A stretch of DNA of 64,000 bases from positions 237,385 to 301,384 of the forward strand of contig JANQRZ010000018.1 in the NCBI GenBank assembly GCA_028284265.1. The letters are read 5' to 3'. Of this stretch, positions 2,404-18,059 are shown piece by piece (positions within the stretch are counted from its first letter, which is position 1; every line of letters begins with the position of its first letter). The position numbers were made by a program, and so were the translations under genes. This DNA comes from Rhodothermales bacterium (GTDB taxonomy: Bacteria; Bacteroidota; Rhodothermia; Rhodothermales; JANQRZ01). The notes below the pieces were generated by a model. It saw only the letters and a program-made list of their open reading frames with translations, was not told the DNA's origin and did no database searches.

Positions 2404-3924
2404 ATGCGCTACACCTCCTGCCTGCTTTTCCTCCTTCTGGTTTTCGCCGGACCATCGGCGGCCCAACCTATCGAGGCAGACGGCCCGTTCCTCGTCGGTC
2501 GCACCGATGTCGTGTTCGATGATGATGTGTTCGGGCAAGGCACGATTCGAGGGCGCATCTATTACCCCGCGACCGCAGCGGGCGTGGAGACACAGCCGGA
2601 TGCGAGCGGTGGCCCATTCCCACTCGTCGCCTTCCAGCACGGCTACCTCGGGCGACCACGCAACTATGACGATCTCTGCGAGCACATCGCAAGCTGGGGG
2701 TTCGTCGTCGCCTCGACCGGCACCGAGACGGGCCTCTTTCCGAACCAACCGCAGTACGCCCGCGACACGCGCTCCCTACTCTACTACGTTGAGGATCAGT
2801 CCGATGCGCCCGGCTCATTCAACGGCATGGTAGACGACGGGCCGTGGGCGGCGTCGGGCCACTCGATGGGCGGCGGCGTGCTTGCGCTACTCATCGGGAT
2901 TGAGCCGCGGGTGCAAACGATCATCGGGTTGCAGTCGGCCTTCGTGAACGACGCCCGGATCGACAACCTCAACGCCTTTACCGGCCGCCATTTTCAGATC
3001 GCCGGATCGGTGGATGGCATCGTGCCGCCCTCGCAGGTGGTCCGCTACTTCAACGAGGCGGATGCCGCCAGCCGCAATGTTTATTTCGAGGTGATCGGGA
3101 TGGGCCATAGCGGGCCGACGGACAACGTGCCGAACAACGAGCCGCTCCCTGCCGCCGACCAGAAGCGTCTTCACAAGCGCCTCGTGACGGGCATTCTCCG
3201 GGCCGAGATCAAGGGCGAGGAAAACCTCTACGCTGAGTTGCTGGGCGAAGGCATCGCGGACGAACCCGTCGAGTTCGACGCTACCTGCACAGACCCGCCG
3301 CTGTGGGTCCGTCCGAGCACCGATCCGTCAACCGTTGTCGTAGGAACCGCCGGAGCGCCGGGAGCCGAGACCGTGCTGGCATGGTCGGATCGGCGGGGTA
3401 TGCGACCAACGCCTGTCGGTGAAATCGGCATCGCGCTTTCGCCCCAACGCATCCTCTTCCGAGGCCCGGCAGCGGCGGATGGTACAGCCGAAGCGCTGCT
3501 GCCACTAGCCGACATCGGCACCGCCGATAGCGTCTTTGTGCAAGGGCTAGCACTCGGCAGCACCGGGAGCGTCACCCGCGTAGAGGCACAGGCCACCGGA
3601 AACTCGGCAGCGCCCGTCTCGGCTGCAAGCCGGAGCACCGATGCGATAGGTACGCGCTTCATCGACGCCTATCCCAACCCATTCCGCGACGACCTCACCG
3701 TCCGCTATCACCTCGCCGAGGCCGGACCTATCGAGGTCGAAGTCTACGATGTGCTTGGCCGCAGCGTGTCCGTCCTCTCAACCAGCACCCAAGCGGTGGG
3801 CATGCACGAAGCGCGGTGGGACGGACGGGACGCATCGGGTAGAGCCGTAGCGCCCGGCCTCTACGTGATCCGTCTCCACGCAGGCGATACGCACCACTCG
3901 CACACCATCGTGCGCGTGCCCTAA
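2404..3924 (+). CDS. Secreted alpha/beta hydrolase (lipase/cutinase/dienelactone-hydrolase-like) with a T9SS C-terminal sorting domain
   Basis: Signal peptide; nucleophile elbow GHSMGGG; FPLVAFQHGYLG oxyanion region. The C-terminus (AYPNPFRDDLTVRYHL...VEVYDVLGRSV...GLYVIRL) is typical of a Por/T9SS CTD. Confidence 0.7.
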   Translation: MRYTSCLLFLLLVFAGPSAAQPIEADGPFLVGRTDVVFDDDVFGQGTIRGRIYYPATAAGVETQPDASGGPFPLVAFQHGYLGRPRNYDDLCEHIASWGFVVASTGTETGLFPNQPQYARDTRSLLYYVEDQSDAPGSFNGMVDDGPWAASGHSMGGGVLALLIGIEPRVQTIIGLQSAFVNDARIDNLNAFTGRHFQIAGSVDGIVPPSQVVRYFNEADAASRNVYFEVIGMGHSGPTDNVPNNEPLPAADQKRLHKRLVTGILRAEIKGEENLYAELLGEGIADEPVEFDATCTDPPLWVRPSTDPSTVVVGTAGAPGAETVLAWSDRRGMRPTPVGEIGIALSPQRILFRGPAAADGTAEALLPLADIGTADSVFVQGLALGSTGSVTRVEAQATGNSAAPVSAASRSTDAIGTRFIDAYPNPFRDDLTVRYHLAEAGPIEVEVYDVLGRSVSVLSTSTQAVGMHEARWDGRDASGRAVAPGLYVIRLHAGDTHHSHTIVRVP

Positions 3925-3927
3925 ATG

Positions 3928-4524
3928 TCAGCGATCAGCGCTCAACTGGAAGCGGGCGGTGACGTCTCGCGCCAGTGCCTCGACACGGGCACGGTCGGCA
4001 GCCAGCACACGGAGCGGACCGTCCACAAAGAGCGCCGCAAGGCCGTGGACAAGACTCCACAATGCAACGGACAGCCGGATCTGTGCCGCCGGGTCAGACT
4101 CGATTTCGGCGACGGCCCCCATGAGGTGGCGAAACCCGGCGATGTCGTCAGGGAGTGAGTCGGTGCCTTCGGCTAGCGCAGCGAACGGGCTACCCATCTC
4201 TGGCCGGAAGGCAAGGCGAAATTGCTCCGGGTGGTCAACCGCATAGAGCACGTAGTTGACCCCCATCGCCCGGATACGCTCGGCTGGGTCGGCATGGTTT
4301 GACGCAGCGAGGGCACGGTCTAGACCCTCCAGCGCGTCTTCGGCGAGCGCGCAGACGAGGTCAGCCTTGCCCTTGAAGTGGTGATAGGGGGCTGTCGGGC
4401 TAACGTCCACGCGGCGAGCGAGGTCGCGGAGGGAGAGTGCCCCCACGCCGCGCTCGGTGAGGACGGTGTGGGCCTCGTCAAGGAGAGCGCGGCGGAGGTC
4501 ACCGTGGTGATAGGCGCCAGACAT
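3928..4524 (-). CDS. TetR/AcrR family transcriptional regulator
   Basis: Starts MSGAYHHGDLRRALLDEAHTVLTERGVGALSLRDLARRVDVSPTAPYHHF (TetR HTH). The 363-aa track ORF (to 5019) is an upstream over-extension that overlaps the divergent gene. Confidence 0.85.
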   Translation of the reverse strand: MSGAYHHGDLRRALLDEAHTVLTERGVGALSLRDLARRVDVSPTAPYHHFKGKADLVCALAEDALEGLDRALAASNHADPAERIRAMGVNYVLYAVDHPEQFRLAFRPEMGSPFAALAEGTDSLPDDIAGFRHLMGAVAEIESDPAAQIRLSVALWSLVHGLAALFVDGPLRVLAADRARVEALARDVTARFQLSADR

Positions 4525-8641: not shown

Positions 8642-11086
8642 TCACAGCAAACCTACCGGGTCCACGTCTACGTTGATCCGCACGCCGTTCGGCGGCTTTC
8701 CGAATTGATCGTTGGTGGCGCGGACGAGGCGGGAGAGCGCGTACGGCTGTCCCGGCTCAGTGGACTTGACGATGGTGTGGAAGCGAAACTGCTTTTTGAC
8801 CCGTCCGATGAACGCGGGGTTCGGGCCAAGCACCTCGACCGCTCCACCCTGCTGCCGTAGCAGCCGCGTCCACCGCTCGGCGGTCTGCTGCACGGTGCGT
8901 TCGCTCGGCCCTTTGAACTCGACGCCAACGAGCTTGCCGTAGGGCGGATAGCCAAACGCCCGCCGGTCGGGTAGCTCCGTGCGGATGAATCCGGCGAAGT
9001 CGTGCCGTGCGGCGTGCTGGAGCGCGGGGTTGTCCGGGCTTCGGGTCTGGAGGATGACCTCGCCGCGCAGCGCCCCACGCCCGGCCCGACCGGCAACCTG
9101 CATCAGAAGCTGGAACGTCCGCTCCGCTGCCCGGAAATCCGGCAGCAGCAACCCCGTGTCGGCATCGACCACGCCGACGAGGGTGACGCGGGCGAAGTCG
9201 AGGCCCTTCGCCACCATTTGCGTCCCGATCAGAATGTCAGCCTCGCTTCGCCCGAATGCATCGAGGATTTTTTGATGCGCGTTCTTCCGGCCCGTCGTGT
9301 CGAGGTCCATCCGCAGGACGCGGGCGTCTGGGAAGACCTCGGCCAGTTCTTCCTCGACGCGCTGCGTCCCCGCGCCGAGACGAGCTAGGTCGGACGATCC
9401 ACACTGTGGACAGCGCGTGGGTAACGGCTCGACGAGGCCACAGTAGTGGCAGCGTAGATGGCGGTGGCTCTTGTGGTAGGTGAGCGTCACGGCACAGTCG
9501 CGGCACTCGGGCGTCCACCCACAGTCGTCGCAGGTGACGATGGGCGAGTAACCGCGCCGGTTCTGGAGGAGGATGATTCCCTCGCCTTTTTCGAGCCGGT
9601 CGCGGATCGCCTCGCGAAGCGGATGCGAGAGTGCCCCTTTGAGCCGCCGGACCTTCTTCTCCCACGTCAGGTCTACGATCTCGACCGGCGGTAGCTCCGC
9701 TGCCTTTCGGCCCGGCACGGGGACACGATCGGGCATGGTGAGTAGCTCGTACTTCCCAGCCTTCGCGTTAAGGGTGCTCTCCAAACTCGGCGTGGCGCTG
9801 CCGAGGACACAGACGGCTCGTTCGAGGTGGGCACGCATCACGGCCACGTCGCGTGCATGGTAGCGCGGGGCCGGATCGAACTGCTTGTAGCTCCCCTCGT
9901 GCTCCTCGTCCACCACGATCAGCCCGACATTTCGTAGCGGCGCGAAGATCGCCGAGCGTGGGCCGATGGCGACGTCGAACCGCCCGTTGTTCAGGTGCCG
10001 CCACGCATCGTAGCGCTCGCCCGCGCTCATGCGGCTGTGGAGCACGGCCACGCGGTCGCCGAAGTGGGCACGGAAGCGGCGGACGGTCTGTGGGGTCAGC
10101 GCAATCTCGGGGACGAGCACGATCCCGGTGCGCCCGGCCTCCAAAGTGTGCCGAAGGGCACGGATGTAGACCTCCGTCTTGCCGCTGCCCGTAACGCCGT
10201 GGAGCAGAAAGGTCTTTGTCTCGCCCGCGCCGAGCGCCGCGCCGATTTGGAAGAGCGCCTCGACCTGTCCAGCGTTGAGTTCGTGGACGGGGGGCGGTTC
10301 CGGTTCTGGCTCCGTGTCGAACGGCGTACGAACGATCTCTTTTTCGATGCGCTCGACGAACCCTTTCTCGACGAGACTTTTCACCGTCGTGCTCGACGCC
10401 CCCGTCTCGGCGAGCACGTCGGCCTGCCGAGACTCAACCTCGCCGTCAGCCTGTAATCGGGCGAGTGTTTCGATGATGGCCGTCTGCTTCGCCCCGCGCA
10501 GCGAGTCCGCTGCCTCCGGCCCGACGCCGTCCGCGAGACTGAGATGCCACTCGGTCTTGACGGTAACGCTTGCAGAAGTTAGCTCCTTCTCGACCCGAAT
10601 CAACTCATCCCGTTCGAGCCGCCGGAGCAGGCTCGCCGTGACCCCATCGATGCTTTGCTGTACGGTGCCGATGGGTTGGGGGCCGTCCGCTTCCAACAGC
10701 GCCAGCACCTGACCGCCGACGCCGTTCAGTCCAAGCGACGGGCGCTCGGTCCGGTGGACAACGCGATGGCTCTCGACGGTCGTGCCGGACGGCAGCGCAG
10801 CCTTGAGCACGTCGCCCCACGCGCAGACGTAGTAGTCGGCGATCCACTGCGTCAGCCGGAGCAGCACCGGCGAGAACGACGGTACGTCGTCCAGCACATC
10901 GAGGATCGGCTTGAGCCGCGGTCCCGCCTCGTCCGTTCGCTCGACCACGACACCCGTCAGTGTGCGCGCTCCGAACGGGATCACAACGCGCGCACCGGGC
11001 AGCGCCTCGGCCTCCAACTCTGCCGGGACGAGGTACGTGTAGACCTTGTCGACGGGCGTAAGCGGAACGACGCGGGCGGTGGGCAT
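8642..11086 (-). CDS. priA: Primosomal protein N' (replication restart helicase PriA)
   Basis: Walker A LLHGVTGSGKTEVY, DEEH box, Cys-rich zinc fingers (CDDCGWTPECRDCAV...CHYCG...CPQCGS). Start moved to MPTARVVPL at 11086 to avoid overlap with rtcA. Confidence 0.9.
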   Translation of the reverse strand: MPTARVVPLTPVDKVYTYLVPAELEAEALPGARVVIPFGARTLTGVVVERTDEAGPRLKPILDVLDDVPSFSPVLLRLTQWIADYYVCAWGDVLKAALPSGTTVESHRVVHRTERPSLGLNGVGGQVLALLEADGPQPIGTVQQSIDGVTASLLRRLERDELIRVEKELTSASVTVKTEWHLSLADGVGPEAADSLRGAKQTAIIETLARLQADGEVESRQADVLAETGASSTTVKSLVEKGFVERIEKEIVRTPFDTEPEPEPPPVHELNAGQVEALFQIGAALGAGETKTFLLHGVTGSGKTEVYIRALRHTLEAGRTGIVLVPEIALTPQTVRRFRAHFGDRVAVLHSRMSAGERYDAWRHLNNGRFDVAIGPRSAIFAPLRNVGLIVVDEEHEGSYKQFDPAPRYHARDVAVMRAHLERAVCVLGSATPSLESTLNAKAGKYELLTMPDRVPVPGRKAAELPPVEIVDLTWEKKVRRLKGALSHPLREAIRDRLEKGEGIILLQNRRGYSPIVTCDDCGWTPECRDCAVTLTYHKSHRHLRCHYCGLVEPLPTRCPQCGSSDLARLGAGTQRVEEELAEVFPDARVLRMDLDTTGRKNAHQKILDAFGRSEADILIGTQMVAKGLDFARVTLVGVVDADTGLLLPDFRAAERTFQLLMQVAGRAGRGALRGEVILQTRSPDNPALQHAARHDFAGFIRTELPDRRAFGYPPYGKLVGVEFKGPSERTVQQTAERWTRLLRQQGGAVEVLGPNPAFIGRVKKQFRFHTIVKSTEPGQPYALSRLVRATNDQFGKPPNGVRINVDVDPVGLL

Positions 11087-11144
11087 AGGGCAGGCTTCGG
11101 TGGGTGGGGAAACTACGACGGCCCCGAGCCAAACCCGATCCCGT

Positions 11145-12179
11145 TTATGCCGCTTCGTCTTGGACCCCAGCGCCGTATACCTGCACGGTTCCATCCTCCT
11201 GCTCCTCGATGTGGAGCGCGTCGGGCATGAACCGGCGGATTACGTCGATGTTGGTCCGGGCGTGTCGGGAAAGCGGCAGCGTGCGGAACGTCCCGCCGCC
11301 CGCGAGCGCGAATGGTAGCATCAACTGGTCGGCGAGGTAACGCCCAACGGGGACGCCCGCCGCGAGGTAGGTCCGTGCCTCCTCTACGGCGCTGCGCGCC
11401 ACCGCCTCGGCCCGCACACCGACACGACCGAAGCTCGCAAACACCTCGGTCACCGCTTCGCTCTCGATCTCGATGAGGAGCACGTTGCCGGGGCACGCCG
11501 CCCTGACCTCCTCGACCCGAAAACACTCCTCACCCCAGTTCATCTTTTTTGCTACGGCGTTGAGTTCGCGCTTGGCGATTCGCTTCGACAGGTTGGCGAC
11601 GATGGCGCGGGCACACCGCGCCTGAACCTCACCGCGCTCGGCGAGGTCGATGGGCGACAGCCGCTCGGCAGGCTCGATGTGGATGCGGAAGCAGCCACCC
11701 CCGGCGGGGAAGAACCCGTACTGATCCAACTCCGCCGAGACACGCGGCCCCATCCGCTCGACGAGTGGAAGGAAGCACTTCTGGAGGAAGTCAAACGGCG
11801 GTGCCCACGGGTTGTGCGTCCCGCCTTCGAGCGTCAGTTCCGACGGCTCCGGGGCCGTCAGGAGCGCAGGCAACACAGTCTGCAGCACGAGCGTCGCACT
11901 CCCCGCGGTGCCGACCGCGAAGTGATACACGCCGGGCCGAACCACACGCGGCCTGAACGTCACCGTCTGCGACCCGATGGCGTCGCCCTCGACCTTCGCC
12001 CCGCCGATCTCAGCGGCGGCACGAACGGCGGTGAGGTGCTGGCGCATCAGCCCCGGCTTATCGCGTCCGGCGCGGATGTTTTCGATACGAAAAGGCTGGC
12101 CCGTGACGAGGGAGAGCGCGAGCGACGTGCGGAGCACCTGCCCGCCGCCCTCCCCGTGGGAGCCGTCGATGTGGATCAT
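11145..12179 (-). CDS. rtcA: RNA 3'-terminal phosphate cyclase
   Basis: MIHIDGSHGEGGGQVLRTSLALSLVTGQPFRIENIRAGRDKPGLMRQHLTAV is the canonical RtcA N-terminus, including the catalytic His region. Confidence 0.9.
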   Translation of the reverse strand: MIHIDGSHGEGGGQVLRTSLALSLVTGQPFRIENIRAGRDKPGLMRQHLTAVRAAAEIGGAKVEGDAIGSQTVTFRPRVVRPGVYHFAVGTAGSATLVLQTVLPALLTAPEPSELTLEGGTHNPWAPPFDFLQKCFLPLVERMGPRVSAELDQYGFFPAGGGCFRIHIEPAERLSPIDLAERGEVQARCARAIVANLSKRIAKRELNAVAKKMNWGEECFRVEEVRAACPGNVLLIEIESEAVTEVFASFGRVGVRAEAVARSAVEEARTYLAAGVPVGRYLADQLMLPFALAGGGTFRTLPLSRHARTNIDVIRRFMPDALHIEEQEDGTVQVYGAGVQDEAA

Positions 12180-12274
12180 GGGATTGGATAAAAAAGCGGG
12201 GACGCACCGCCGTGCGCCCCCGGTGGTTCATGGTCTGAAAGTAATCGTCACGGAGGGTCCCGTCGTAGCGACCG

Positions 12275-12487
12275 CTACCGAGGCAGCACCGCTTGAAACC
12301 GGCGACCGGAGCCGCACGGGCAGAGGTCGTTGCGCCCGAGCTTCTCGGTCAGCACCTTCCCGTCGCCGACGGTGCGGACGCCGCGCTTGACGCGGGCCTC
12401 GCTCGGGAAGCCGCGACGTCGCTTGCTCATCGGCTCAAAAGGACGCTTCGTTGTCGAATCGTTCGGGATCGTTGCGCATGATGGCAT
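12275..12487 (-). CDS. Small basic protein with a disrupted C-terminal SEC-C zinc motif (possibly frameshifted)
   Basis: Ends ...[21 protein letters not shown]. The second half of the SEC-C motif (GFKRCC) is encoded in the +1 frame of the same nucleotides. An alternative start is MSKRRRG at 12430. Confidence 0.45.
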
Positions 12488-12521: not shown

Positions 12522-14021
12522 CTAGGCGGCCCCGCGGTACTGCTTCTCCGCGTCTTTGATGACGAACCGGGCGTCGAGCGATGCGACGGAGCGCGCCAGC
12601 CCGGCCTTTTCGACCGAGGCGATTACCTCGTCGAAGTCCTTGTAGGCGTCGGGCGACTCGTCGAGCGGGTAGCGACGGCAGTTGCTCAGCACGTCTTCGC
12701 GCTCGAACGCGGCATCGACCTCGGCCTGGTCCAGCGTGCGCTTGGCGGCGCGACGGCCCATCGTGCGGCCCGCGCCGTGGTTGACGCTGTAAAGGCTCTG
12801 CGACGCCCCCGGCTCCGCCACCATCACCGCCGAGCCCGAGAGCGGGTCGCCGGGCAGGAGGATCGGGTGGCCGGTGTCGGCGAACGGCGTACCGTCGAGG
12901 CTAGGGTGGCCTGCCGGGAACGCACGCGTCGCACCCTTGCGATGCACCCACGCTTGCTCGCCGTCGAGGTCTTCGAGCCGGGCGATATTGTGGCTGATGA
13001 AGTACACGAGATCGCCCTGCACGCCGGGAAGCACCTCTTGGAAGGCCTCCAGCACAAGCGCGTTGATGAGTAGGTGGTTGACCGTCGCGAAGTTTGCGCC
13101 AAGCGACATGTCGTCAATGTAGGCGTCCGCGAGCGACGTGCCGAGCGGGGCGTAGACGAGTTGCTTGTCGCCCGCCGGGTAGGCCCAGCCTTCGCGCTCG
13201 AAGTGCTGCTCCATCGCACGGAACTGGTTCTGCGCGAGCTGATACCCGAACCCGCGCGATCCGCAGTGGCTCAGGAACGCGACATGCCCATCGCGCAGCC
13301 CGAAGTGCTCCGCGAGATCGGCCTCACCATCGGCGACGTGGACCACCTCGCACTCGCCGAAGTGGTTGCCGCCGCCGTAGGAGCCAAGCTGCCGGACCTT
13401 CGACTCGAACGCCTGAAATCCGCCATGCGATCGCAGCAAAGCGAGCCGGTCGCCGAGCGTATCCCGCGTCCCGTCGTGGCCGACGTGGAAGGCATCTTCG
13501 CAGCGCGTGGCCCAGTGCGCAGGAATCCCGAGCGCTTCGAGGACGTCTTGCGACGCACCCTCCGTCACAGCCTGCGCGCCGAGCGTGGCATCGACCGAGC
13601 GGCCCTTCGCTACCGAGCGCTGGCCCTTGCCGGGACCGGTGGGCGTGCGCTCCAGGATCGCTTCGATCAGGGCGCGACGCGTACGGCGATCTTCAATAGC
13701 ATCCGCCGGAAGGTCGAGTTGGAGCAGGCTCATCGAGCACTTGATGTCCACCCCGACCGGGCCGGGATAGATGTGCGTCGGCGACGAGAGCGCGCAGCCG
13801 ACCGGCGCACCGTAGCCGAGGTGCGCGTCGGGGTTGAGCACGAGGTCGGTGACGCCGGGTGCGGAACGGGTGTTCTGCGCCTGCGTCAGGCACACATCGC
13901 CAAACGTCTGGCGGATGGCCTCGGTGCCGATGACGGTGATCGGCGTGCCCTCGCCGCTGTGCGTGGGCAGCGTGGCAGTGGCTTCGCCGGTGGGCGTGAT
14001 GCGGGATTCGATGGAGGTCAT
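12522..14021 (-). CDS. rtcB: RNA-splicing ligase RtcB (3'-phosphate/5'-hydroxyl RNA ligase)
   Basis: [23 protein letters not shown] and [11 protein letters not shown] motifs. At 499 aa it is the long form. Confidence 0.95.
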
Positions 14022-14052
14022 GGGAGGAAAGGTATGGAGAGAAAAAACAAGC

Positions 14053-14220
14053 GGAGGACGCCCAGTCCGGGCGGGGCGACGAGGTGGTGACGAAACGTCA
14101 CTGCTCTACCACTGAGCTACAGATGCCAAAGCATCTGGCCGGAGTCGAACCGGCGACCTGTGGGTTATGGACCATGTAGTTCCGTCGGCATTCGCCCCGC
14201 CCGGAGCGGGCGCGGCCTCC
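14053..14220 (-). ncRNA. yrlA: Y RNA module M5: YrlA-like RNA with a permuted tRNA-like domain and a 3' U tract
   Basis: Outer stem CCGGGCGGGGCGA (14204-14192) pairs with UCGCCCCGCCCGG (14079-14067); inner helix GACGGAAC:GUUUCGUC. Inside are a T arm GCCGG-UUCGACU-CCGGC (14154-14138), a closed 7-bp acceptor mimic CAGAUGC-UUUG-GCAUCUG (14137-14120) and a D arm GCUC-AGUGGUA-GAGC (14117-14103). A distal extension GGAGG..CCUCC is followed by UUGUUUUUU (14050-14042). Confidence 0.75.
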
Positions 14221-14228
14221 ACAACAGA

Positions 14229-14313
14229 GGAGCGACAAGAGGGTGGCGAGACTCACGGCACAGACAGCGAGCTGCCTGCCACCGTCCGATGTAGTCCCAC
14301 CGGCATTCGCTCC
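14229..14313 (-). ncRNA. Y RNA-like module M4 (simple bulged apical hairpin)
   Basis: Outer GGAGCGA:UCGCUCC, loop AUGCC/ACCCUCUUG, inner GGUGGGAC:GUCUCGCC, then UACAUCGG. The apical part is a GGCAG-CUCG-CUGUC hairpin. Confidence 0.6.
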
Positions 14314-14327
14314 GATCAAAGAACAGA

Positions 14328-14429
14328 GGCAACGACAAGGGGTGGCACCACATCCCGCCGAGGCGGGCCGGGACTCGAACCCGAAGCCTTTCGGCTTTTA
14401 CCGATGTAGTGGTACCGGCATTCGTCACC
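14328..14429 (-). ncRNA. Y RNA-like module M3 (partial tRNA mimic: T arm only)
   Basis: Outer GGUGACGA:UCGUUGCC, loop AUGCC/ACCCCUUG, inner GGUACCAC:GUGGUGCC. The apical part holds an AGCC-GAAA-GGCU hairpin, a T-arm-like UCGGG-UUCGAGU-CCCGG (14384-14368) and a CCCGC-CUCG-GCGGG hairpin. Confidence 0.6.
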
Positions 14430-14435
14430 AGGAGT

Positions 14436-14519
14436 AGCAGCGGCAAGGGGTGGCAGGACATTCCCGGCCATAGGGGCCGGTTGCTTTTGAGGCATGTAGT
14501 CCTACCGGCATCCGCTGCC
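14436..14519 (-). ncRNA. Y RNA-like module M2 (short form with CUCAAAA loop)
   Basis: Outer GCAGCGG:CCGCUGC, loop AUGCC/ACCCCUUG, inner GGUAGGAC:GUCCUGCC. The apical part has the CUCAAAAGC element and a CCGGCC-CCUAU-GGCCGG hairpin. Confidence 0.6.
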
Positions 14520-14535
14520 GTATTCATTTCCCCGA

Positions 14536-14624
14536 GGGTGCGGCGGGCAACGAGTACCGAGACCTGTGCCCGAATGGGCAATCGTTTTGAGCGATGTAGT
14601 CCCGGCGGCATCCCGCCGCACCCC
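14536..14624 (-). ncRNA. Y RNA-like module M1 (short form with CUCAAAA loop)
   Basis: Outer GUGCGGCGGG:CCCGCCGCAC, loop AUGCC/ACUCGUUG, inner GCCGGGAC:GUCUCGGU (2 GU pairs). The apical part has an AUCG-CUCAAAA-CGAU hairpin and a UGCCC-AUUC-GGGCA hairpin. Confidence 0.55.
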
Positions 14625-14683
14625 AACAGGGGTCCGACTCAGCGAGTCGGTTTAGAGGTGAAAGGTTTCAGTTTCAGGTTGGC

Positions 14684-16255
14684 TTACAGTTCGACGCGCT
14701 CGATCTCACCGACCCAGTGGTTGGAGTCGAGACCGTGCTCGGCGAACCGGGCGATCACGTCGAAGACGCGGTCGGAGAAGCCGCCGACGTTGAGGATGTC
14801 CTCGCCGTCGGTGACCTGGCTCGTCCGGTACGGCTGGACGTCGAGGCAGACGAGGCGTGCGCGCGGGTTGCGCTGCTTGAGCGCGTTCCACTCGCGGAGC
14901 ATCGCCGTACCCCCGCCGCCCCACTGCGCGTCCACCCACGACTGGTTGTCGGAGACGAACAGCACGAGGTCGGCCTGGGCACGCTGCTTGTTCAGCCGGG
15001 CCAGCGGCGCGCTACAGTTCGTCCCGCCGCCGCCCACCGACGCGAGCCGGGTGGCGTTGGTCATGACGCTGTCGCGCGGGTTGAGCCGGACGCTGACGAC
15101 GCGGTTCTCGAACGGCAGCACCGTCGCCGACGGATTCGTCCGCAGCACCGCCGCCGTCACAAGCGAGGCAACATCGACGCACCGGACGGCGGAGGTCGCG
15201 CCGCGCCGGTACCCGGTCACGGGGCTGTGCATCGACCCCGACACGTCCGGGCAGACGACGACACGACCCTCGATTTCGGGCACGTTCTCGACGGCGATCT
15301 CCATCGCGTCCTGCAACGCAGCGCGAACTGGCTCCGGTACTCCGCTCGACGCCTGTGTGAAGGCGACCAGCAACTGGTACGGGAAGACCCGTGCCCGCTG
15401 CATGGCCTGCCGGTCGCGCAGCCGCTCGGCGATGAGGTCCGTCAAACCCTCCACATCGAACACGCCGTGGCGTGCGAACGTGTTGAGGTTCATCCGGGTC
15501 GTCTGCCACGTCGCACGGCGTGCAATCGCAGCCCACGCCTCACGGTCGAGGTCGAGCGCAGTTAGCATCTGGAACGGCACGTCCGGCACGGGAACCGACG
15601 GGTCGCGCTTGAACCGCTCGAAGTCACGGACGACCTCAGGCAGGAGCGCGGCGTCGTGCTCGCGGCCAAGCAGGTAGCCGTAGAAGGCGGCCCGCTCCGG
15701 CGTCGCCGGGGTCGGGTGGACCATCTTGACGATGTCCGCCAGCGACGGCGACTGCCCCACCGAGGCGTAGAACAACTGCGTCTCGGTGCGTGCGGCGAGC
15801 CAGCTACGGACCATCCGCTTCGGTGCCGACCCGAGCGACTTCCGCCCGACGGCTCCCGACCGCATGATCTGCACGAACGTCCGCAGCATCCGGCTGTTGT
15901 CGATCACACGCGGGAAGATCCGCTCCAAGAGCCGGATGTCCGCCTGCGGCCGACCGGTATCGGCGAGCGCAGCGCAGAGCAACGCGGGCATGTCCTTCAT
16001 GAAGGCGTGCTCGCGGGCGTAGACCGCTGTGCGAGCGACGAAGTCTCCATCGAGGTTGGCCGCCAGCTTCAGCACCGTGTCGAGTTGACTCTCTGCCGAT
16101 GCGTAGAACGTGGCGTTGAGGCAACCGGTCGCAGCGAACTGAGCGAGCGCGTGCTTCGGCGTGAAGGCATAGGCGGGTGCCCCCTCACGGTTAACCGCAT
16201 CGGTGGCCGGCGCACGCCGACCGCGAAGCGTGTTGAAGAGTGCGAGGTTGACCAT
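14684..16255 (-). CDS. rsr: Ro60 ortholog Rsr (TROVE domain + vWA domain)
   Basis: N-terminus LFNTLRGRRAPATDAVNREGAPAYAFTPKHALAQFAATGCLNATFYA (TROVE). C-terminal vWA domain with MIDAS motif VVCPDVSGSM. Genomic context with rtcB, rtcA and rtcR. Confidence 0.9.
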   Translation of the reverse strand: MVNLALFNTLRGRRAPATDAVNREGAPAYAFTPKHALAQFAATGCLNATFYASAESQLDTVLKLAANLDGDFVARTAVYAREHAFMKDMPALLCAALADTGRPQADIRLLERIFPRVIDNSRMLRTFVQIMRSGAVGRKSLGSAPKRMVRSWLAARTETQLFYASVGQSPSLADIVKMVHPTPATPERAAFYGYLLGREHDAALLPEVVRDFERFKRDPSVPVPDVPFQMLTALDLDREAWAAIARRATWQTTRMNLNTFARHGVFDVEGLTDLIAERLRDRQAMQRARVFPYQLLVAFTQASSGVPEPVRAALQDAMEIAVENVPEIEGRVVVCPDVSGSMHSPVTGYRRGATSAVRCVDVASLVTAAVLRTNPSATVLPFENRVVSVRLNPRDSVMTNATRLASVGGGGTNCSAPLARLNKQRAQADLVLFVSDNQSWVDAQWGGGGTAMLREWNALKQRNPRARLVCLDVQPYRTSQVTDGEDILNVGGFSDRVFDVIARFAEHGLDSNHWVGEIERVEL

Positions 16256-16297: not shown

Positions 16298-16314
16298 TGC
16301 CAAGCGCCGTGCCA
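16298..16314 (-). promoter_or_regulatory. Sigma54 (-24/-12) promoter for rsr-Y RNA-rtcBA
   Basis: Minus strand reads TGGCACGGCGCTTGGCA against the consensus TGGCAC-N5-TTGCA (one extra G in the -12 element). It sits about 43 nt upstream of the rsr ATG and is divergent from the sigma54 activator gene rtcR. Confidence 0.55.
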
Positions 16315-16454: not shown

Positions 16455-18059
16455 ATGTCCCAAACGGTTGCACTCGGCCTGCTCGGCGTCTCGCTCGACG
16501 GTAGCAAGGGCACCGCCGCACGCTGGGAGCGGTGGCGTCCGAGCGTCGCGCTCTGCCAGCACGAAGACCTCCTCATCGACCGCTTCGAGTTGCTCCATCA
16601 GCCGAAGTTTGCCGACACCGCCGAGGCCGTCGCCACCGACATCCGCACCGTCTCGCCGGAGACCGACGTGCGCCTCCACACACTCGACTTCGATGATGCG
16701 TGGGACTTCGAGGAGGTCTTCCGCACGCTCCACGACTTCGCCGTCGACTACCCCTTCGACCCCGACGCCGAGGACTACCTCGTCCACATCACGACGGGCA
16801 GCCACGTCGCCCAGATCAGCCTCTTCCTCCTCGTCGAGAGCCGGTTCTTTCCGGCCCAGCTGATCCAGACCAGCCCGCCGCGACGAAGCAACGCCAACCC
16901 CGCCGGGTCCTACCGACTCATCGACCTCGACCTCTCGAAGTACGACCGCCTCGCCTCGCGCTTCGAGCAAACATTCTGGGAGGACCTCGACTTCCTCAAG
17001 TCCGGCATCCAGACGCGCAATGCTGCCTTCAACGCGCTCATTGAGCAGATCGAGCGCGTGGCGATCTACTCCCGCGACCCGATACTACTGACAGGGCCGA
17101 CGGGCGCAGGCAAGAGCCAACTCGCCCGACGGATTTACGAACTGAAGCAAACGCGGCGACAGGTTGAGGGCGCATTCGTTGAGGTCAACTGTGCGACACT
17201 GCGGGGCGATCAAGCGATGGCAGCGCTGTTCGGGCATACCAAGGGCGCATTTACCGGTGCCGCTCGCGCCCGCCCCGGCCTCCTCCGCACCGCTGACGGC
17301 GGCGTCCTTTTTCTCGACGAGATTGGCGAGCTAGGACTCGATGAGCAGGCGATGCTGCTGCGGGCACTCGAAGAGAAACGCTTCCTCCCTGTCGGAGCCG
17401 ACGCCGAGGTTGAGAGTGATTTCCAACTCATCGCCGGGACCAACCGAACGCTCACCGATGCTGTCCGGGGGGGCGACTTCCGCGAAGACCTCTTCGCTCG
17501 GATCAACCTCTGGACCTTCCGCCTCCCAAGCCTCCGCGAGCGCCCCGAAGACATCGAGCCGAACCTCGACTACGAGCTATCAAAGGCCGCCCACCGGCTG
17601 AACCAGATGGTGCAGTTCTCGACCGAGGCACGCGCGCAGTTTCTGACCTTCGCCACCTCGACCGAGGCGCGCTGGAGTGCCAACTTCCGCGACCTCAACG
17701 CTGCAGTTACCCGGATGGCAACGCTAGCTCCCGGCGGGCGCATCACCGAAGACGTAGTCACGGATGAGATCGAACGCCTGCGCGCAGCATGGGCCGAGCC
17801 TTTCGATGCACCGGGACAAGACACGGAGCGCCTGCACCAACTTCTCGGTGGCGCAGCCAACGACCTCGACCTCTTCGACCGAGTGCAACTCGCCGAGGTG
17901 AGCCGTGTCTGCGCGCAGGCTCCGTCGCTGTCGGAGGCAGGTCGCCGCCTGTTCGCCGAGTCCCGCAAGCGGAAGAAAACGAGCAACGATGCGGACCGTC
18001 TCCGCAAGTATCTCGCCCGCTTTGGGCTGACGTGGGATGACCTCCATTCCGCACCTTGA
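16455..18059 (+). CDS. rtcR: Sigma54-dependent transcriptional activator RtcR (CARF-like N-domain + AAA+ + HTH)
   Basis: AAA+ Walker A LLTGPTGAGKSQLA and the GAFTGA sigma54-contact motif (HTKGAFTGA). The roughly 190-aa N-terminal domain is typical of RtcR. Divergent from the rsr/rtcBA operon. Confidence 0.9.
   Translation: MSQTVALGLLGVSLDGSKGTAARWERWRPSVALCQHEDLLIDRFELLHQPKFADTAEAVATDIRTVSPETDVRLHTLDFDDAWDFEEVFRTLHDFAVDYPFDPDAEDYLVHITTGSHVAQISLFLLVESRFFPAQLIQTSPPRRSNANPAGSYRLIDLDLSKYDRLASRFEQTFWEDLDFLKSGIQTRNAAFNALIEQIERVAIYSRDPILLTGPTGAGKSQLARRIYELKQTRRQVEGAFVEVNCATLRGDQAMAALFGHTKGAFTGAARARPGLLRTADGGVLFLDEIGELGLDEQAMLLRALEEKRFLPVGADAEVESDFQLIAGTNRTLTDAVRGGDFREDLFARINLWTFRLPSLRERPEDIEPNLDYELSKAAHRLNQMVQFSTEARAQFLTFATSTEARWSANFRDLNAAVTRMATLAPGGRITEDVVTDEIERLRAAWAEPFDAPGQDTERLHQLLGGAANDLDLFDRVQLAEVSRVCAQAPSLSEAGRRLFAESRKRKKTSNDADRLRKYLARFGLTWDDLHSAP

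What the first reader, a model, noticed from the sequence alone, without database searches (positions are those of the whole stretch)
14053..14624. Five tandem, covarying Y-RNA-like modules fill the rsr-rtcB spacer
The transcribed (minus) strand between the rsr stop (14684) and the rtcB ATG (14021) has no credible ORF. It resolves into five consecutive units: M1 14536-14624, M2 14436-14519, M3 14328-14429, M4 14229-14313 and M5 14053-14220. All five have the same architecture: an outer stem, an asymmetric internal loop (5' AUGCC opposite 3' ACCCCUUG or a close variant), an 8-bp inner helix, an invariant UACAU, and then a variable apical domain. Primary sequence is conserved only in the loops. 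Both helices differ between units yet stay complementary. Outer stems are GUGCGGCGGG:CCCGCCGCAC, GCAGCGG:CCGCUGC, GGUGACGA:UCGUUGCC, GGAGCGA:UCGCUCC and CCGGGCGGGGCGA:UCGCCCCGCCCGG. Inner helices are GCCGGGAC:GUCUCGGU, GGUAGGAC:GUCCUGCC, GGUACCAC:GUGGUGCC, GGUGGGAC:GUCUCGCC and GACGGAAC:GUUUCGUC. Compensatory change across five paralogs is strong evidence for a selected RNA structure. The position next to rsr (Ro60) matches bacterial Y RNAs (YrlA/YrlB of the Salmonella rsr-yrlBA-rtcBA operon). Five back-to-back Ro-type stems with graded apical domains (two CUCAAAA-loop forms, one T-arm-only form, one plain hairpin, one full tRNA mimic) may exceed the one or two Y RNAs I recall per locus. This suggests either a polycistronic Y RNA precursor or a single scaffold able to load several Rsr rings.
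Basis: partly seen in the sequence, partly recalled or inferred. Interest (0 to 1): 0.85.

Follow-up and report, generated by a model that had tools for sequence, protein, structure and literature searches.

The report
Five tandem Y RNAs beside Ro60
The gap between the Ro60 (rsr) gene and the RNA ligase gene rtcB holds five back-to-back small-RNA modules that share one conserved Ro60-binding stem but have different tips; this is a large example of a known bacterial system, and such arrays turn out to be common in related bacteria.

Summary
On the minus strand between rsr (16255-14684) and rtcB (14021-12522) lie five modules at the stated coordinates. Each has an outer stem, AUGCC, an 8-bp inner helix, UACAU, a variable apical domain and a 3' ACCNCUUG-type loop.

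The motif ATGCC-N7-CTACAT occurs five times in 64 kb, all here (0.32 expected). M5 passes the Rfam YrlA gathering score (70.2 bits). M3 and M4 are sub-threshold YrlA matches. M1, M2 and M4 score 44-54 bits with my stem-only covariance model.

A relative with 90% identical Rsr (L001) has the same five modules. All stems are kept, with compensatory changes. Stem parts are 82-92% identical; apical domains only 36-81%.

The locus is a classic rtcR | sigma54-like promoter | rsr-Y RNAs-rtcB-rtcA operon.

Five is not exceptional. In 74 related rsr loci, the strict descriptor finds 3 or more modules in 36 and 5 or more in 6. Rfam's curated threshold calls only 0-2 per locus.

Best reading: a polycistronic set of Rsr-binding Y RNAs with different effector domains. 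Expression, processing and binding are untested, and M1 and M2 depart from the published Rsr-binding motif.

The parts
16455..18059 (+). rtcR, a divergent sigma54-dependent activator
   Evidence: Pfam RtcR (1.4e-79) plus Sigma54_activat (2.9e-49)
16298..16314 (-). sigma54-type -24/-12 element TGGCACGGCGCTTGGCA upstream of rsr. The -12 part is one base off the TTGCW consensus.
   Evidence: Read from the sequence. The same element is present in L001. A similar element occurs in 27 of 34 loci with rtcR against 5 of 47 without.
14684..16255 (-). rsr (Ro60 / TROVE-vWA protein), 523 aa
   Evidence: Pfam vWA_Ro60 4.8e-17 and TROVE. PDB 2NVO, D. radiodurans Rsr, E = 2.2e-17 over residues 18-505.
14625..14683 (-). 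Leader between the rsr stop and M1. It holds a 24-nt stretch conserved with L001 (CUGAAACCkUUmACCUCUAAACCG) and a small hairpin CCGACUC-GCU-GAGUCGG. It is not a module.
14536..14624 (-). M1: Y-RNA-like module. Outer stem 12-13 bp, AUGCC, inner helix GCCGGGAC/GUCUCGGU, UACAU, and a 30-nt apical domain of two small hairpins. It is first after rsr, the position YrlB holds in Salmonella. The 5' strand reads GGGAUG, not CGAAUG.
   Evidence: Fold z = -5.1. Stem model R1 43.8 bits, E = 3e-9. Rfam YrlB only 14.7 bits. Stems kept in L001.
14436..14519 (-). M2: Y-RNA-like module. Outer stem 8 bp, inner helix GGUAGGAC/GUCCUGCC, 34-nt apical domain of two hairpins. The 5' strand reads CGGAUG.
   Evidence: Fold z = -3.4. 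R1 49.3 bits, E = 1e-10. Compensatory A-U to G-C change in the inner helix against L001.
14328..14429 (-). M3: Y-RNA-like module with a T-arm but no D-arm. The T-arm CGGGUUCGAGUCCCG lies at 14369-14383 and is flanked by two hairpins. Canonical GACGAAUG motif.
   Evidence: Rfam YrlA 32.4 bits, E = 4.7e-5, end to end. Fold z = -3.0. Apical domain 81% identical to L001.
14229..14313 (-). M4: Y-RNA-like module with a plain 36-nt hairpin tip. Motif AGCGAAUG. The orthologue in L001 carries an 81-nt tip with a T-arm and a D-arm remnant.
   Evidence: R1 54.0 bits, E = 5e-12. Rfam YrlA 24.4 bits, E = 0.0098. Apical identity to L001 only 36%.
14051..14222 (-). M5: full YrlA-type tRNA mimic. The core is 14066-14205 and the Rfam match is 14070-14198. 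T-arm 14138-14154, 7-bp 'acceptor-like' hairpin 14120-14137, D-arm 14103-14117. The basal stem extends to about 28 bp.
   Evidence: Rfam YrlA 70.2 bits against a gathering score of 69. Fold z = -4.5. Constrained fold. Two compensatory changes in the 14120-14137 hairpin against L001.
12522..14021 (-). rtcB RNA ligase
   Evidence: Pfam RtcB 3.3e-101
11145..12179 (-). rtcA RNA 3'-phosphate cyclase
   Evidence: Pfam RTC 2.6e-80

Best explanation
The spacer is a tandem array of five bacterial Y RNA genes of the YrlA/YrlB kind, inside an RtcR/sigma54-controlled rsr-(Y RNAs)-rtcB-rtcA RNA-repair operon.

Shown here
- Five independently folding modules share one conserved stem unit: NNNNCGA-AUGCC-(8 bp)-UACAU ... 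(8 bp)-ANNCUUG-UCGNNNN.
- This unit is the stem of the Rfam YrlA model. Its 5' strand carries the published candidate Rsr-binding motif GNCGAAN0-1G.
- The helices covary while the loops stay fixed.
- The tips differ: a full tRNA mimic (M5), a T-arm-only form (M3) and simple hairpins (M1, M2, M4).

Inferred from precedent in S. Typhimurium, M. smegmatis and D. radiodurans
- The array is transcribed with rsr from the sigma54-type promoter when RtcR is activated.
- It is cut at the short single-stranded linkers into five RNAs of about 85-170 nt.
- Each stem binds one Rsr ring, and each tip tethers or gates Rsr for a different partner.
- The long basal helix of M5 may add an RNase III site.
- The tRNA-like M5 sits next to rtcB, as YrlA does in Salmonella.
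For: Identity as Y-RNA-like modules
- M5 passes the Rfam YrlA threshold. M3 and M4 are full-length sub-threshold YrlA matches.
- M1, M2 and M4 score 44-54 bits with the stem-only model R1. Apart from a partial 19-bit match inside M5 and a 10.7-bit, 11-nt match (E = 2.3), nothing else in 64 kb matches.
- The motif occurs five times against 0.32 expected.

Operon context
- Pfam assignments, the PDB Rsr match and the sigma54-like element.
- There is no conserved terminator between M5 and rtcB. The window's U-run is absent from L001.

Orthologue L001 (Rsr 90% identical)
- It has the same five modules.
- Outer and inner helices of M1, M2, M3 and M5 are 100% paired in both sequences. There are 5 double compensatory changes and more than 20 one-sided changes; slid controls pair only 37-50%.
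- Stem parts are 82-92% identical, apical parts 36-81%.

Family level
- Of 189 motif-only hits in 81 related loci and the window locus, 165 (87%) have both complementary 3' strands. With 5' strands swapped between modules, only 64 of 945 (6.8%) do.
- 14 of 15 stem pairs show double changes across 90 modules (these sequences were selected for pairing).

Precedent in PMC4201824
- Y RNAs lie within 4 kb of rsr on the same strand.
- M. smegmatis YrlA and YrlB are 'processed from a single precursor', and that YrlB has a T-arm.
- D. radiodurans Yrn2 is polycistronic with a tRNA and Yrn1.

Module independence
- Module number (0-6), order and spacing (5 nt to more than 1 kb) vary between loci. This fits independent units.
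Against: - There are no expression, end-mapping or binding data for this organism.
- M1 and M2 have G-C instead of A-U at the last outer-stem pair, giving GGGAUG and CGGAUG. Only 5 of 90 family stems share this, and 4 of those are this lineage. They break the published GNCGAAN0-1G motif, so Rsr binding is uncertain.
- M4's tip is not conserved even in the 90% relative, so its effector role may be weak or in flux.
- Only M5 passes any curated family threshold.
- No processing signals are shown.
- The family covariation alignment was built from sequences pre-selected for pairing, and the orthologue test rests on a single relative.
Confidence: 0.68

Rival explanations
1. The roughly 600-nt array stays unprocessed, alone or as part of the rsr-rtcB mRNA. 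Several Rsr rings load onto it side by side, giving a multi-ring particle.
For: - Linkers are very short (6-16 nt between M1-M4).
- The whole spacer folds as a chain of independent stems with z = -5.6.
- No internal promoters or conserved terminators were found.
Against: - In every characterised bacterium, Y RNAs accumulate as separate 80-130-nt RNAs, and are processed from a precursor where tested (PMC4201824).
- Module number, order and spacing differ widely between loci, and some arrays are interrupted by more than 1 kb. A fixed scaffold geometry would not be expected to tolerate this.
Confidence: 0.12
2. M1, M2 and M4 are mainly cis-acting parts of the operon transcript. They could be Rsr-binding sites for feedback control, or structured blocks that set the relative stability of the rsr and rtcB segments. 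Only M5, and perhaps M3, would be true trans-acting Y RNAs.
For: - M1, M2 and M4 have simple, fast-evolving tips (36-63% identical to L001) while their stems are kept.
- They fail all curated Rfam thresholds.
- M1 and M2 depart from the binding motif.
Against: - Hairpin-type Y RNAs without tRNA-like domains are known and are bound by Rsr: YrlB and Yrn2 (PMC4201824).
- Short first modules occur right after rsr in many loci that have no rtcB downstream, so they are not tied to rtcB expression.
Confidence: 0.1
3. Some modules are decaying tandem duplicates of a YrlA gene with no function of their own. M4 is the main candidate, having lost its tRNA-like tip.
For: - L001's M4 still has a T-arm and a D-arm remnant, while the window's copy has a plain hairpin.
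- M1 and M2 look like paralogues of each other.
Against: - The stems of all five are intact at 8 of 8 inner pairs and are maintained by compensatory changes between the two genomes, including several in M4.
- The loops AUGCC and UACAU are unchanged in every window copy.
- Decay would hit stems and loops alike.
Confidence: 0.1

Closest known systems
S. Typhimurium rsr-yrlB-yrlA-rtcB-rtcA operon (YrlA RF02553, YrlB RF02565)
   Same: - Same gene order, with divergent rtcR and sigma54-type control.
- Y RNAs lie between rsr and rtcB. A hairpin-type RNA comes first and the tRNA-like YrlA comes last, next to rtcB.
- M5 passes the YrlA model.
   Different: - Five modules instead of two.
- M1-M4 do not pass the YrlA threshold, and M1 scores only 14.7 bits on YrlB.
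- A small SEC-C-motif ORF and a terminator-like hairpin sit between rtcB and rtcA.
M. smegmatis YrlA and YrlB (PMC4201824)
   Same: - Several Y RNAs are cut from one precursor.
- The second RNA has a T-arm only, like M3.
- YrlA has a 7-bp acceptor-like stem and is an RNase P substrate. M5 also has a 7-bp stem (14120-14137).
   Different: The RNAs are encoded upstream of rsr there, and there are two rather than five. Cleavage of M5 by RNase P is untested.
D. radiodurans Yrn1, Yrn2 and small RNAs a, b, d
   Same: A cluster of several small RNAs next to rsr, made as a polycistronic precursor. One has a T-arm-like stem-loop and one is a long hairpin.
   Different: A different stem sequence family: the Rfam Deinococcus_Y_RNA model gives only 21 bits on M3. 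The cluster is upstream of rsr and is not in an rtcBA operon.
Vertebrate Y1, Y3, Y4 and Y5 RNAs
   Same: Two to four paralogues share one Ro60-binding stem and differ in their loop or effector domain. This is the same logic as M1-M5.
   Different: They are separate Pol III genes with a different conserved helix, and they have no tRNA mimicry.

Membership tests
Bacterial Y RNA, YrlA subfamily (Rfam RF02553; Chen et al. 2014) | Encoded within about 4 kb of an rsr (Ro60/TROVE) gene, on the same strand | tested here: met
   All five lie 60-640 nt downstream of the rsr stop on the minus strand.
Bacterial Y RNA, YrlA subfamily (Rfam RF02553; Chen et al. 2014) | Score at or above the Rfam gathering threshold of 69 bits | tested here: inconclusive
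   M5 scores 70.2 (met). M3 32.4, M4 24.4, and M1 and M2 have no YrlA match (not met).
Bacterial Y RNA, YrlA subfamily (Rfam RF02553; Chen et al. 2014) | Long 5'/3' terminal stem carrying GNCGAAN0-1G on the 5' strand, the candidate Rsr-binding site | tested here: inconclusive
   The stem is present in all five. Motif: M5 GGCGAAUG and M3 GACGAAUG are met. M4 AGCGAAUG is one base off. M2 AGCGGAUG and M1 GCGGGAUG are not met.
Bacterial Y RNA, YrlA subfamily (Rfam RF02553; Chen et al. 2014) | tRNA-like effector domain: T-arm, then an acceptor-like hairpin, then a D-arm | tested here: inconclusive
   M5 has all three (alignment). M3 has the T-arm only. M1, M2 and M4 have none.
Bacterial Y RNA (any subfamily) | Bound by Rsr, and accumulation depends on Rsr | not testable with these tools
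   Needs immunoprecipitation, EMSA or Northern blots in an rsr mutant.
YrlB (Rfam RF02565) | Score at or above the gathering threshold of 97 bits | tested here: not met
   M1 scores 14.7 bits, E = 9.9. Only the position (first after rsr) and the hairpin shape resemble YrlB.
Deinococcus Y RNA (Rfam RF01053) | Score at or above the gathering threshold of 80 bits | tested here: not met
   M3 scores 21 bits, E = 0.45.
rtcR-controlled rsr-rtcBA RNA-repair operon | Divergent RtcR (CARF-like N domain plus sigma54-interaction domain), a sigma54 promoter, and rsr, rtcB and rtcA co-oriented | tested here: met
   Pfam assignments. TGGCAC-N5-TTGGCA lies about 45-60 nt upstream of rsr, with its -12 element one base off consensus.
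tRNA gene | Cloverleaf with an anticodon arm and an open acceptor stem | tested here: not met
   ARAGORN finds none in 13900-14800. Rfam tRNA has no match.

The most novel reading that the evidence does not exclude
Rsr loci of this clade may encode a kit of 3-6 adaptor RNAs, all sharing one Rsr-binding stem, whose different tips send the same Ro60 ring to different partners. The tips seen so far are a tRNA mimic, a T-arm-only form, hairpins and, in Acidobacteria, a conserved non-tRNA three-way junction. In this window the five adaptors would be released together with RtcB and RtcA on tRNA damage. Alternatively they might stay joined as a multi-ring scaffold. Curated models see only the tRNA-like members, so this diversity is largely unannotated.
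Probability: 0.3. Interest if true: 0.65.

Novelty: new variant of a known kind. Interest (0 to 1): 0.4.

Why it matters
Bacterial Ro60 is thought to work through Y RNAs that tether it to effectors, but only one or two Y RNAs per species have been studied. In the accessible literature the only effector shown for a bacterial Y RNA is PNPase.

This array has one invariant Rsr-binding stem with five different tips. Arrays of 3-6 such modules recur across several phyla. Together these suggest Ro60 has more partners than are known.

The finding also gives defined RNAs to test by pull-down. It shows that the Rfam YrlA model under-annotates these loci, calling 0-2 modules where 4-6 exist.

The locus itself remains an ordinary member of the rsr-Y RNA-rtcBA operon type.

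Tried and rejected
- Protein-coding reading of the spacer: rejected. There are no Pfam hits, and indels against L001 break the reading frames.
- tRNA genes or pseudogenes: rejected.
- Dispersed repeat or mobile element: rejected. The motif and the stem model match nowhere else in 64 kb.
- YrlB identity for M1, and Deinococcus-type Y RNA for M3: far below threshold.
- Stem-only covariance model R1: it finds M1, M2 and M4 strongly. It misses M3 and gives only a partial hit on M5, because apical inserts above about 40 nt exceed the model's maximum hit length. I therefore did not use it for counting and used a scripted descriptor instead.
- First control for the descriptor, shuffling the inner 5' strand: uninformative. 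G-rich shuffles still pair (53 hits). I replaced it with a swap of 5' strands between modules.
- Looser descriptor with 7-9-bp inner helices: it recovers more first modules but has about 0.03 false hits per kb. A few distant 'sixth' modules are probably spurious.
- Terminator-like site after M5 (14064-14048): it has a weak stem and is not conserved in L001, so I do not treat it as a terminator.
- Literature: reviews by Sim & Wolin 2018, Boccitto & Wolin 2019 and Sim et al. 2020 are not held. The supplementary tables of Chen et al. 2014 are not held either. I could not check how many YrlA-like sequences per locus were already tabulated there; the paper reports 355 in 276 genomes.
Full report
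**Locus**

- On the minus strand the window encodes a 523-aa Ro60/TROVE-vWA protein, rsr, at 16255-14684. Pfam gives vWA_Ro60 at 4.8e-17. The protein matches D. radiodurans Rsr (PDB 2NVO) at 2.2e-17 over residues 18-505.
- A 662-nt gap follows, then rtcB (14021-12522, Pfam 3.3e-101), a 70-aa ORF with a SEC-C motif, and rtcA (12179-11145).
- rtcR (16455-18059) is divergent and has RtcR and sigma54-interaction domains.
- About 45-60 nt upstream of the rsr ATG lies TGGCACGGCGCTTGGCA (16314-16298), a sigma54-type -24/-12 element one base off consensus.
- A comparable element is present in 27 of 34 related loci that have rtcR, and in 5 of 47 that do not.
- This is the rsr-yrlBA-rtcBA operon type described for S. 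Typhimurium (PMC7790460).
- NCBI names a 90%-cluster member of this Rsr protein (MEM1043208.1) as from a 'Bacteroidota bacterium' MAG. The window also carries a Bacteroidales-type SRP RNA.

Z-scores against dinucleotide shuffles are -5.1, -3.4, -3.0, -2.3 and -4.5.
- The whole spacer folds as a chain of these stems, z = -5.6.
- ATGCC-N7-CTACAT occurs five times in the window, all here, against 0.32 expected.
- No tRNA gene is present. The spacer ORFs have no Pfam match.

**What the modules are**

- Rfam places M5 (14070-14198) in YrlA at 70.2 bits, against a gathering score of 69. The T-arm, acceptor-like hairpin and D-arm all align.
- At a relaxed threshold, M3 (32.4 bits, E = 4.7e-5) and M4 (24.4 bits, E = 0.0098) also align end to end to YrlA through their stems. 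M1 gives only 14.7 bits on YrlB, and M2 gives nothing.
- I built a stem-only covariance model from 90 related modules. It scores M4 at 54.0, M2 at 49.3 and M1 at 43.8 bits. Apart from a partial 19-bit match inside M5 and a 10.7-bit, 11-nt match (E = 2.3), it finds nothing else in 64 kb.
- That model misses M3 and gives only a partial hit on M5, because their apical inserts exceed its maximum hit length.
- Every module is therefore significant with at least one structural model.
- The shared unit is the terminal stem of YrlA. Its 5' strand holds the candidate Rsr-binding motif GNCGAAN0-1G (PMC4201824).
- M5 (GGCGAAUG) and M3 (GACGAAUG) meet the motif. M4 (AGCGAAUG) is one base off.
- M2 (AGCGGAUG) and M1 (GCGGGAUG) are not matches. 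Their last outer-stem pair is G-C instead of A-U, a state seen in only 5 of 90 family stems.

**Orthologue test**

- Only one close relative exists in the protein collection searched: P0002, 90% identical. The next hits are 69% or lower.
- Its 4.3-kb contig, L001, carries rtcR | rsr | spacer | rtcB with the same five modules.
- In a structure-blind MAFFT alignment of the two spacers, 95.4% of the cells of the window-derived structure are paired. Slid controls pair 37-50%.
- Outer and inner helices of M1, M2, M3 and M5 are 100% paired in both sequences.
- There are five double compensatory changes: one in the M2 inner helix, one in an M3 apical hairpin, one in the M4 apical hairpin and two in the M5 acceptor-like hairpin. 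More than 20 one-sided changes also occur.
- M4's inner helix is misaligned by MAFFT. The descriptor shows it is 8 of 8 paired in L001 (GACCGGAC/GUCCGGUC against GGUGGGAC/GUCUCGCC), with two double changes.

| Module | Stem parts, identity to L001 | Apical domain, identity to L001 |
|---|---|---|
| M1 | 90% | 63% |
| M2 | 86% | 59% |
| M3 | 92% | 81% |
| M4 | 82% | 36% |
| M5 | 89% | 81% |

- L001's M4 carries a T-arm and a D-arm remnant that the window's copy lacks.
- The stem is therefore the constrained unit. The tRNA-like tips are constrained, and the hairpin tips are not.

**Family survey**

- I scanned one genome per species with an Rsr alignment. This returned 80 loci with Rsr 58-68% identical to the window's.
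- They come from Acidobacteriota, Verrucomicrobiota, Planctomycetota, Proteobacteria, Sumerlaeota and MAGs labelled Clostridia or Heliomicrobium.
- The same module recurs downstream of rsr on the same strand.
- Selecting only on the 5' loop motif, 165 of 189 hits (87%) have both complementary 3' strands. With 5' strands swapped between modules, 64 of 945 (6.8%) do.
- In the 90-module stem alignment, 14 of 15 pairs show double changes. The covariation score is 0.759, against 0.21 for shuffles and 0.20 or less for slid controls. These sequences were pre-selected for pairing, so the percentage paired is by construction.

Module counts per locus, in the 74 loci (of 82, including the window and L001) with at least 1.5 kb downstream of rsr:

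| Modules per locus | 0 | 1 | 2 | 3 | 4 | 5 | 6 |
|---|---|---|---|---|---|---|---|
| Strict descriptor | 5 | 12 | 21 | 21 | 9 | 5 | 1 |
| Looser descriptor, 7-9-bp inner helix | 1 | 7 | 22 | 17 | 11 | 13 | 3 |

- The looser descriptor has about 0.03 false hits per kb.
- The usual order is a short hairpin module directly after the rsr stop, intermediate forms, then the T+D-arm YrlA last. The window follows this order.
- On 15 module-rich loci, Rfam's gathering threshold calls only 0-2 YrlA each. This explains why one or two per locus is the familiar picture.
- Five modules is thus in the upper range but not exceptional for this clade.

**Mechanism**

Shown here:
- structure under selection;
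- a shared Rsr-type stem with variable tips;
- the operon context.

Inferred from precedent:
- The array is co-transcribed with rsr and rtcB from the RtcR/sigma54 promoter.
- It is processed into separate Y RNAs, and each binds one Rsr ring.
- The tips specify different partners.

Further points:
- The window's U-run after M5 is not conserved in L001, so read-through into rtcB is likely.
- Wide variation in module number and spacing between loci argues for independent units rather than a fixed multi-ring scaffold. That rival is not excluded.
- M5's 7-bp acceptor-like stem resembles the RNase P-cleaved M. smegmatis YrlA.
- M5's basal helix of about 28 bp could be an RNase III site. Both are speculation.

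**Comparison and novelty**

- M5 is a new member of YrlA.
- M1-M4 share the defining stem but fail the curated YrlA, YrlB and Deinococcus Y RNA thresholds. I call them Y-RNA-like variants, not members.
- The accessible literature states 'at least two' Y RNAs per species and reports 355 YrlA-like sequences in 276 genomes, without describing arrays (PMC4201824).
- The relevant reviews and supplementary tables were not available, so prior tabulation of multi-copy loci cannot be excluded.
- I rate this a new variant of a known kind, of moderate interest (0.4). It is a clear, well-supported example, but of an established system.

Noticed in passing
L002-L081; for example L081:5-3900, L059:59-3900, L004:25-3900, L014:1245-3534, L055:2193-3963: In about 40 of the 80 related loci, rsr is directly preceded on the same strand by a large tRNA gene array. 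Most are Acidobacteriota that lack rtcR and rtcB. Arrays hold 7-30 tRNA genes within the 4 kb fetched, giving the order tRNA array - rsr - Y RNA array. The window has no tRNA genes. A full-text search listed no paper among its top hits that pairs 'tRNA array' with Ro60, Rsr or TROVE.
   Followed up: partly
L003:5643-5757, L023:4257-4383, L047:5836-5968 and 15 others (alignment A4): Acidobacterial modules with inner helix RRAGGAC carry a conserved non-tRNA tip. It is a multi-helix junction, GAGCC..GUGGAG-UGUGAUGA-CUCCAGCGGUGG..ACCGUGCUC, with compensatory changes in three helices. It may be an undescribed Y RNA effector domain. It is absent from the window.
   Followed up: partly
window 12197-12222 (minus strand), with the small ORF at 12275-12487: A strong terminator-like hairpin (11 pairs, 9 of them G-C, followed by a U-run) lies between a 70-aa SEC-C-motif ORF and the rtcA start at 12179. 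It could attenuate or uncouple rtcA from rsr-rtcB.
   Followed up: no
window 14684-16255: The window's Rsr is 90% identical to one metagenomic protein. Otherwise it is at most 69% identical, mostly to Pyrinomonadaceae and other Acidobacteriota, although the host is named a Bacteroidota MAG. This hints at horizontal transfer of the operon.
   Followed up: no
window 14648-14671 and L001:2536-2559: A 24-nt leader just after the rsr stop, CUGAAACCkUUmACCUCUAAACCG, is nearly identical in the two genomes, while the hairpin that follows it is not. It could be a processing or binding site.
   Followed up: no
window 14328-14429 (M3): M3 has an alternative register in which CACUACAUC pairs with GAUGUGGUG and so buries the UACAU motif. 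This fold is 1.6 kcal/mol more stable than the canonical one.
   Followed up: no
window 11145-11194: The priA ORF (8642-11194) overlaps the 3' end of rtcA by 50 nt on the same strand, if the longest ORF start is used.
   Followed up: no
L073:2417-2548 and 3828-3955: In this Pyrinomonadaceae locus two modules lie upstream of rsr rather than downstream, as in M. smegmatis and D. radiodurans.
   Followed up: no
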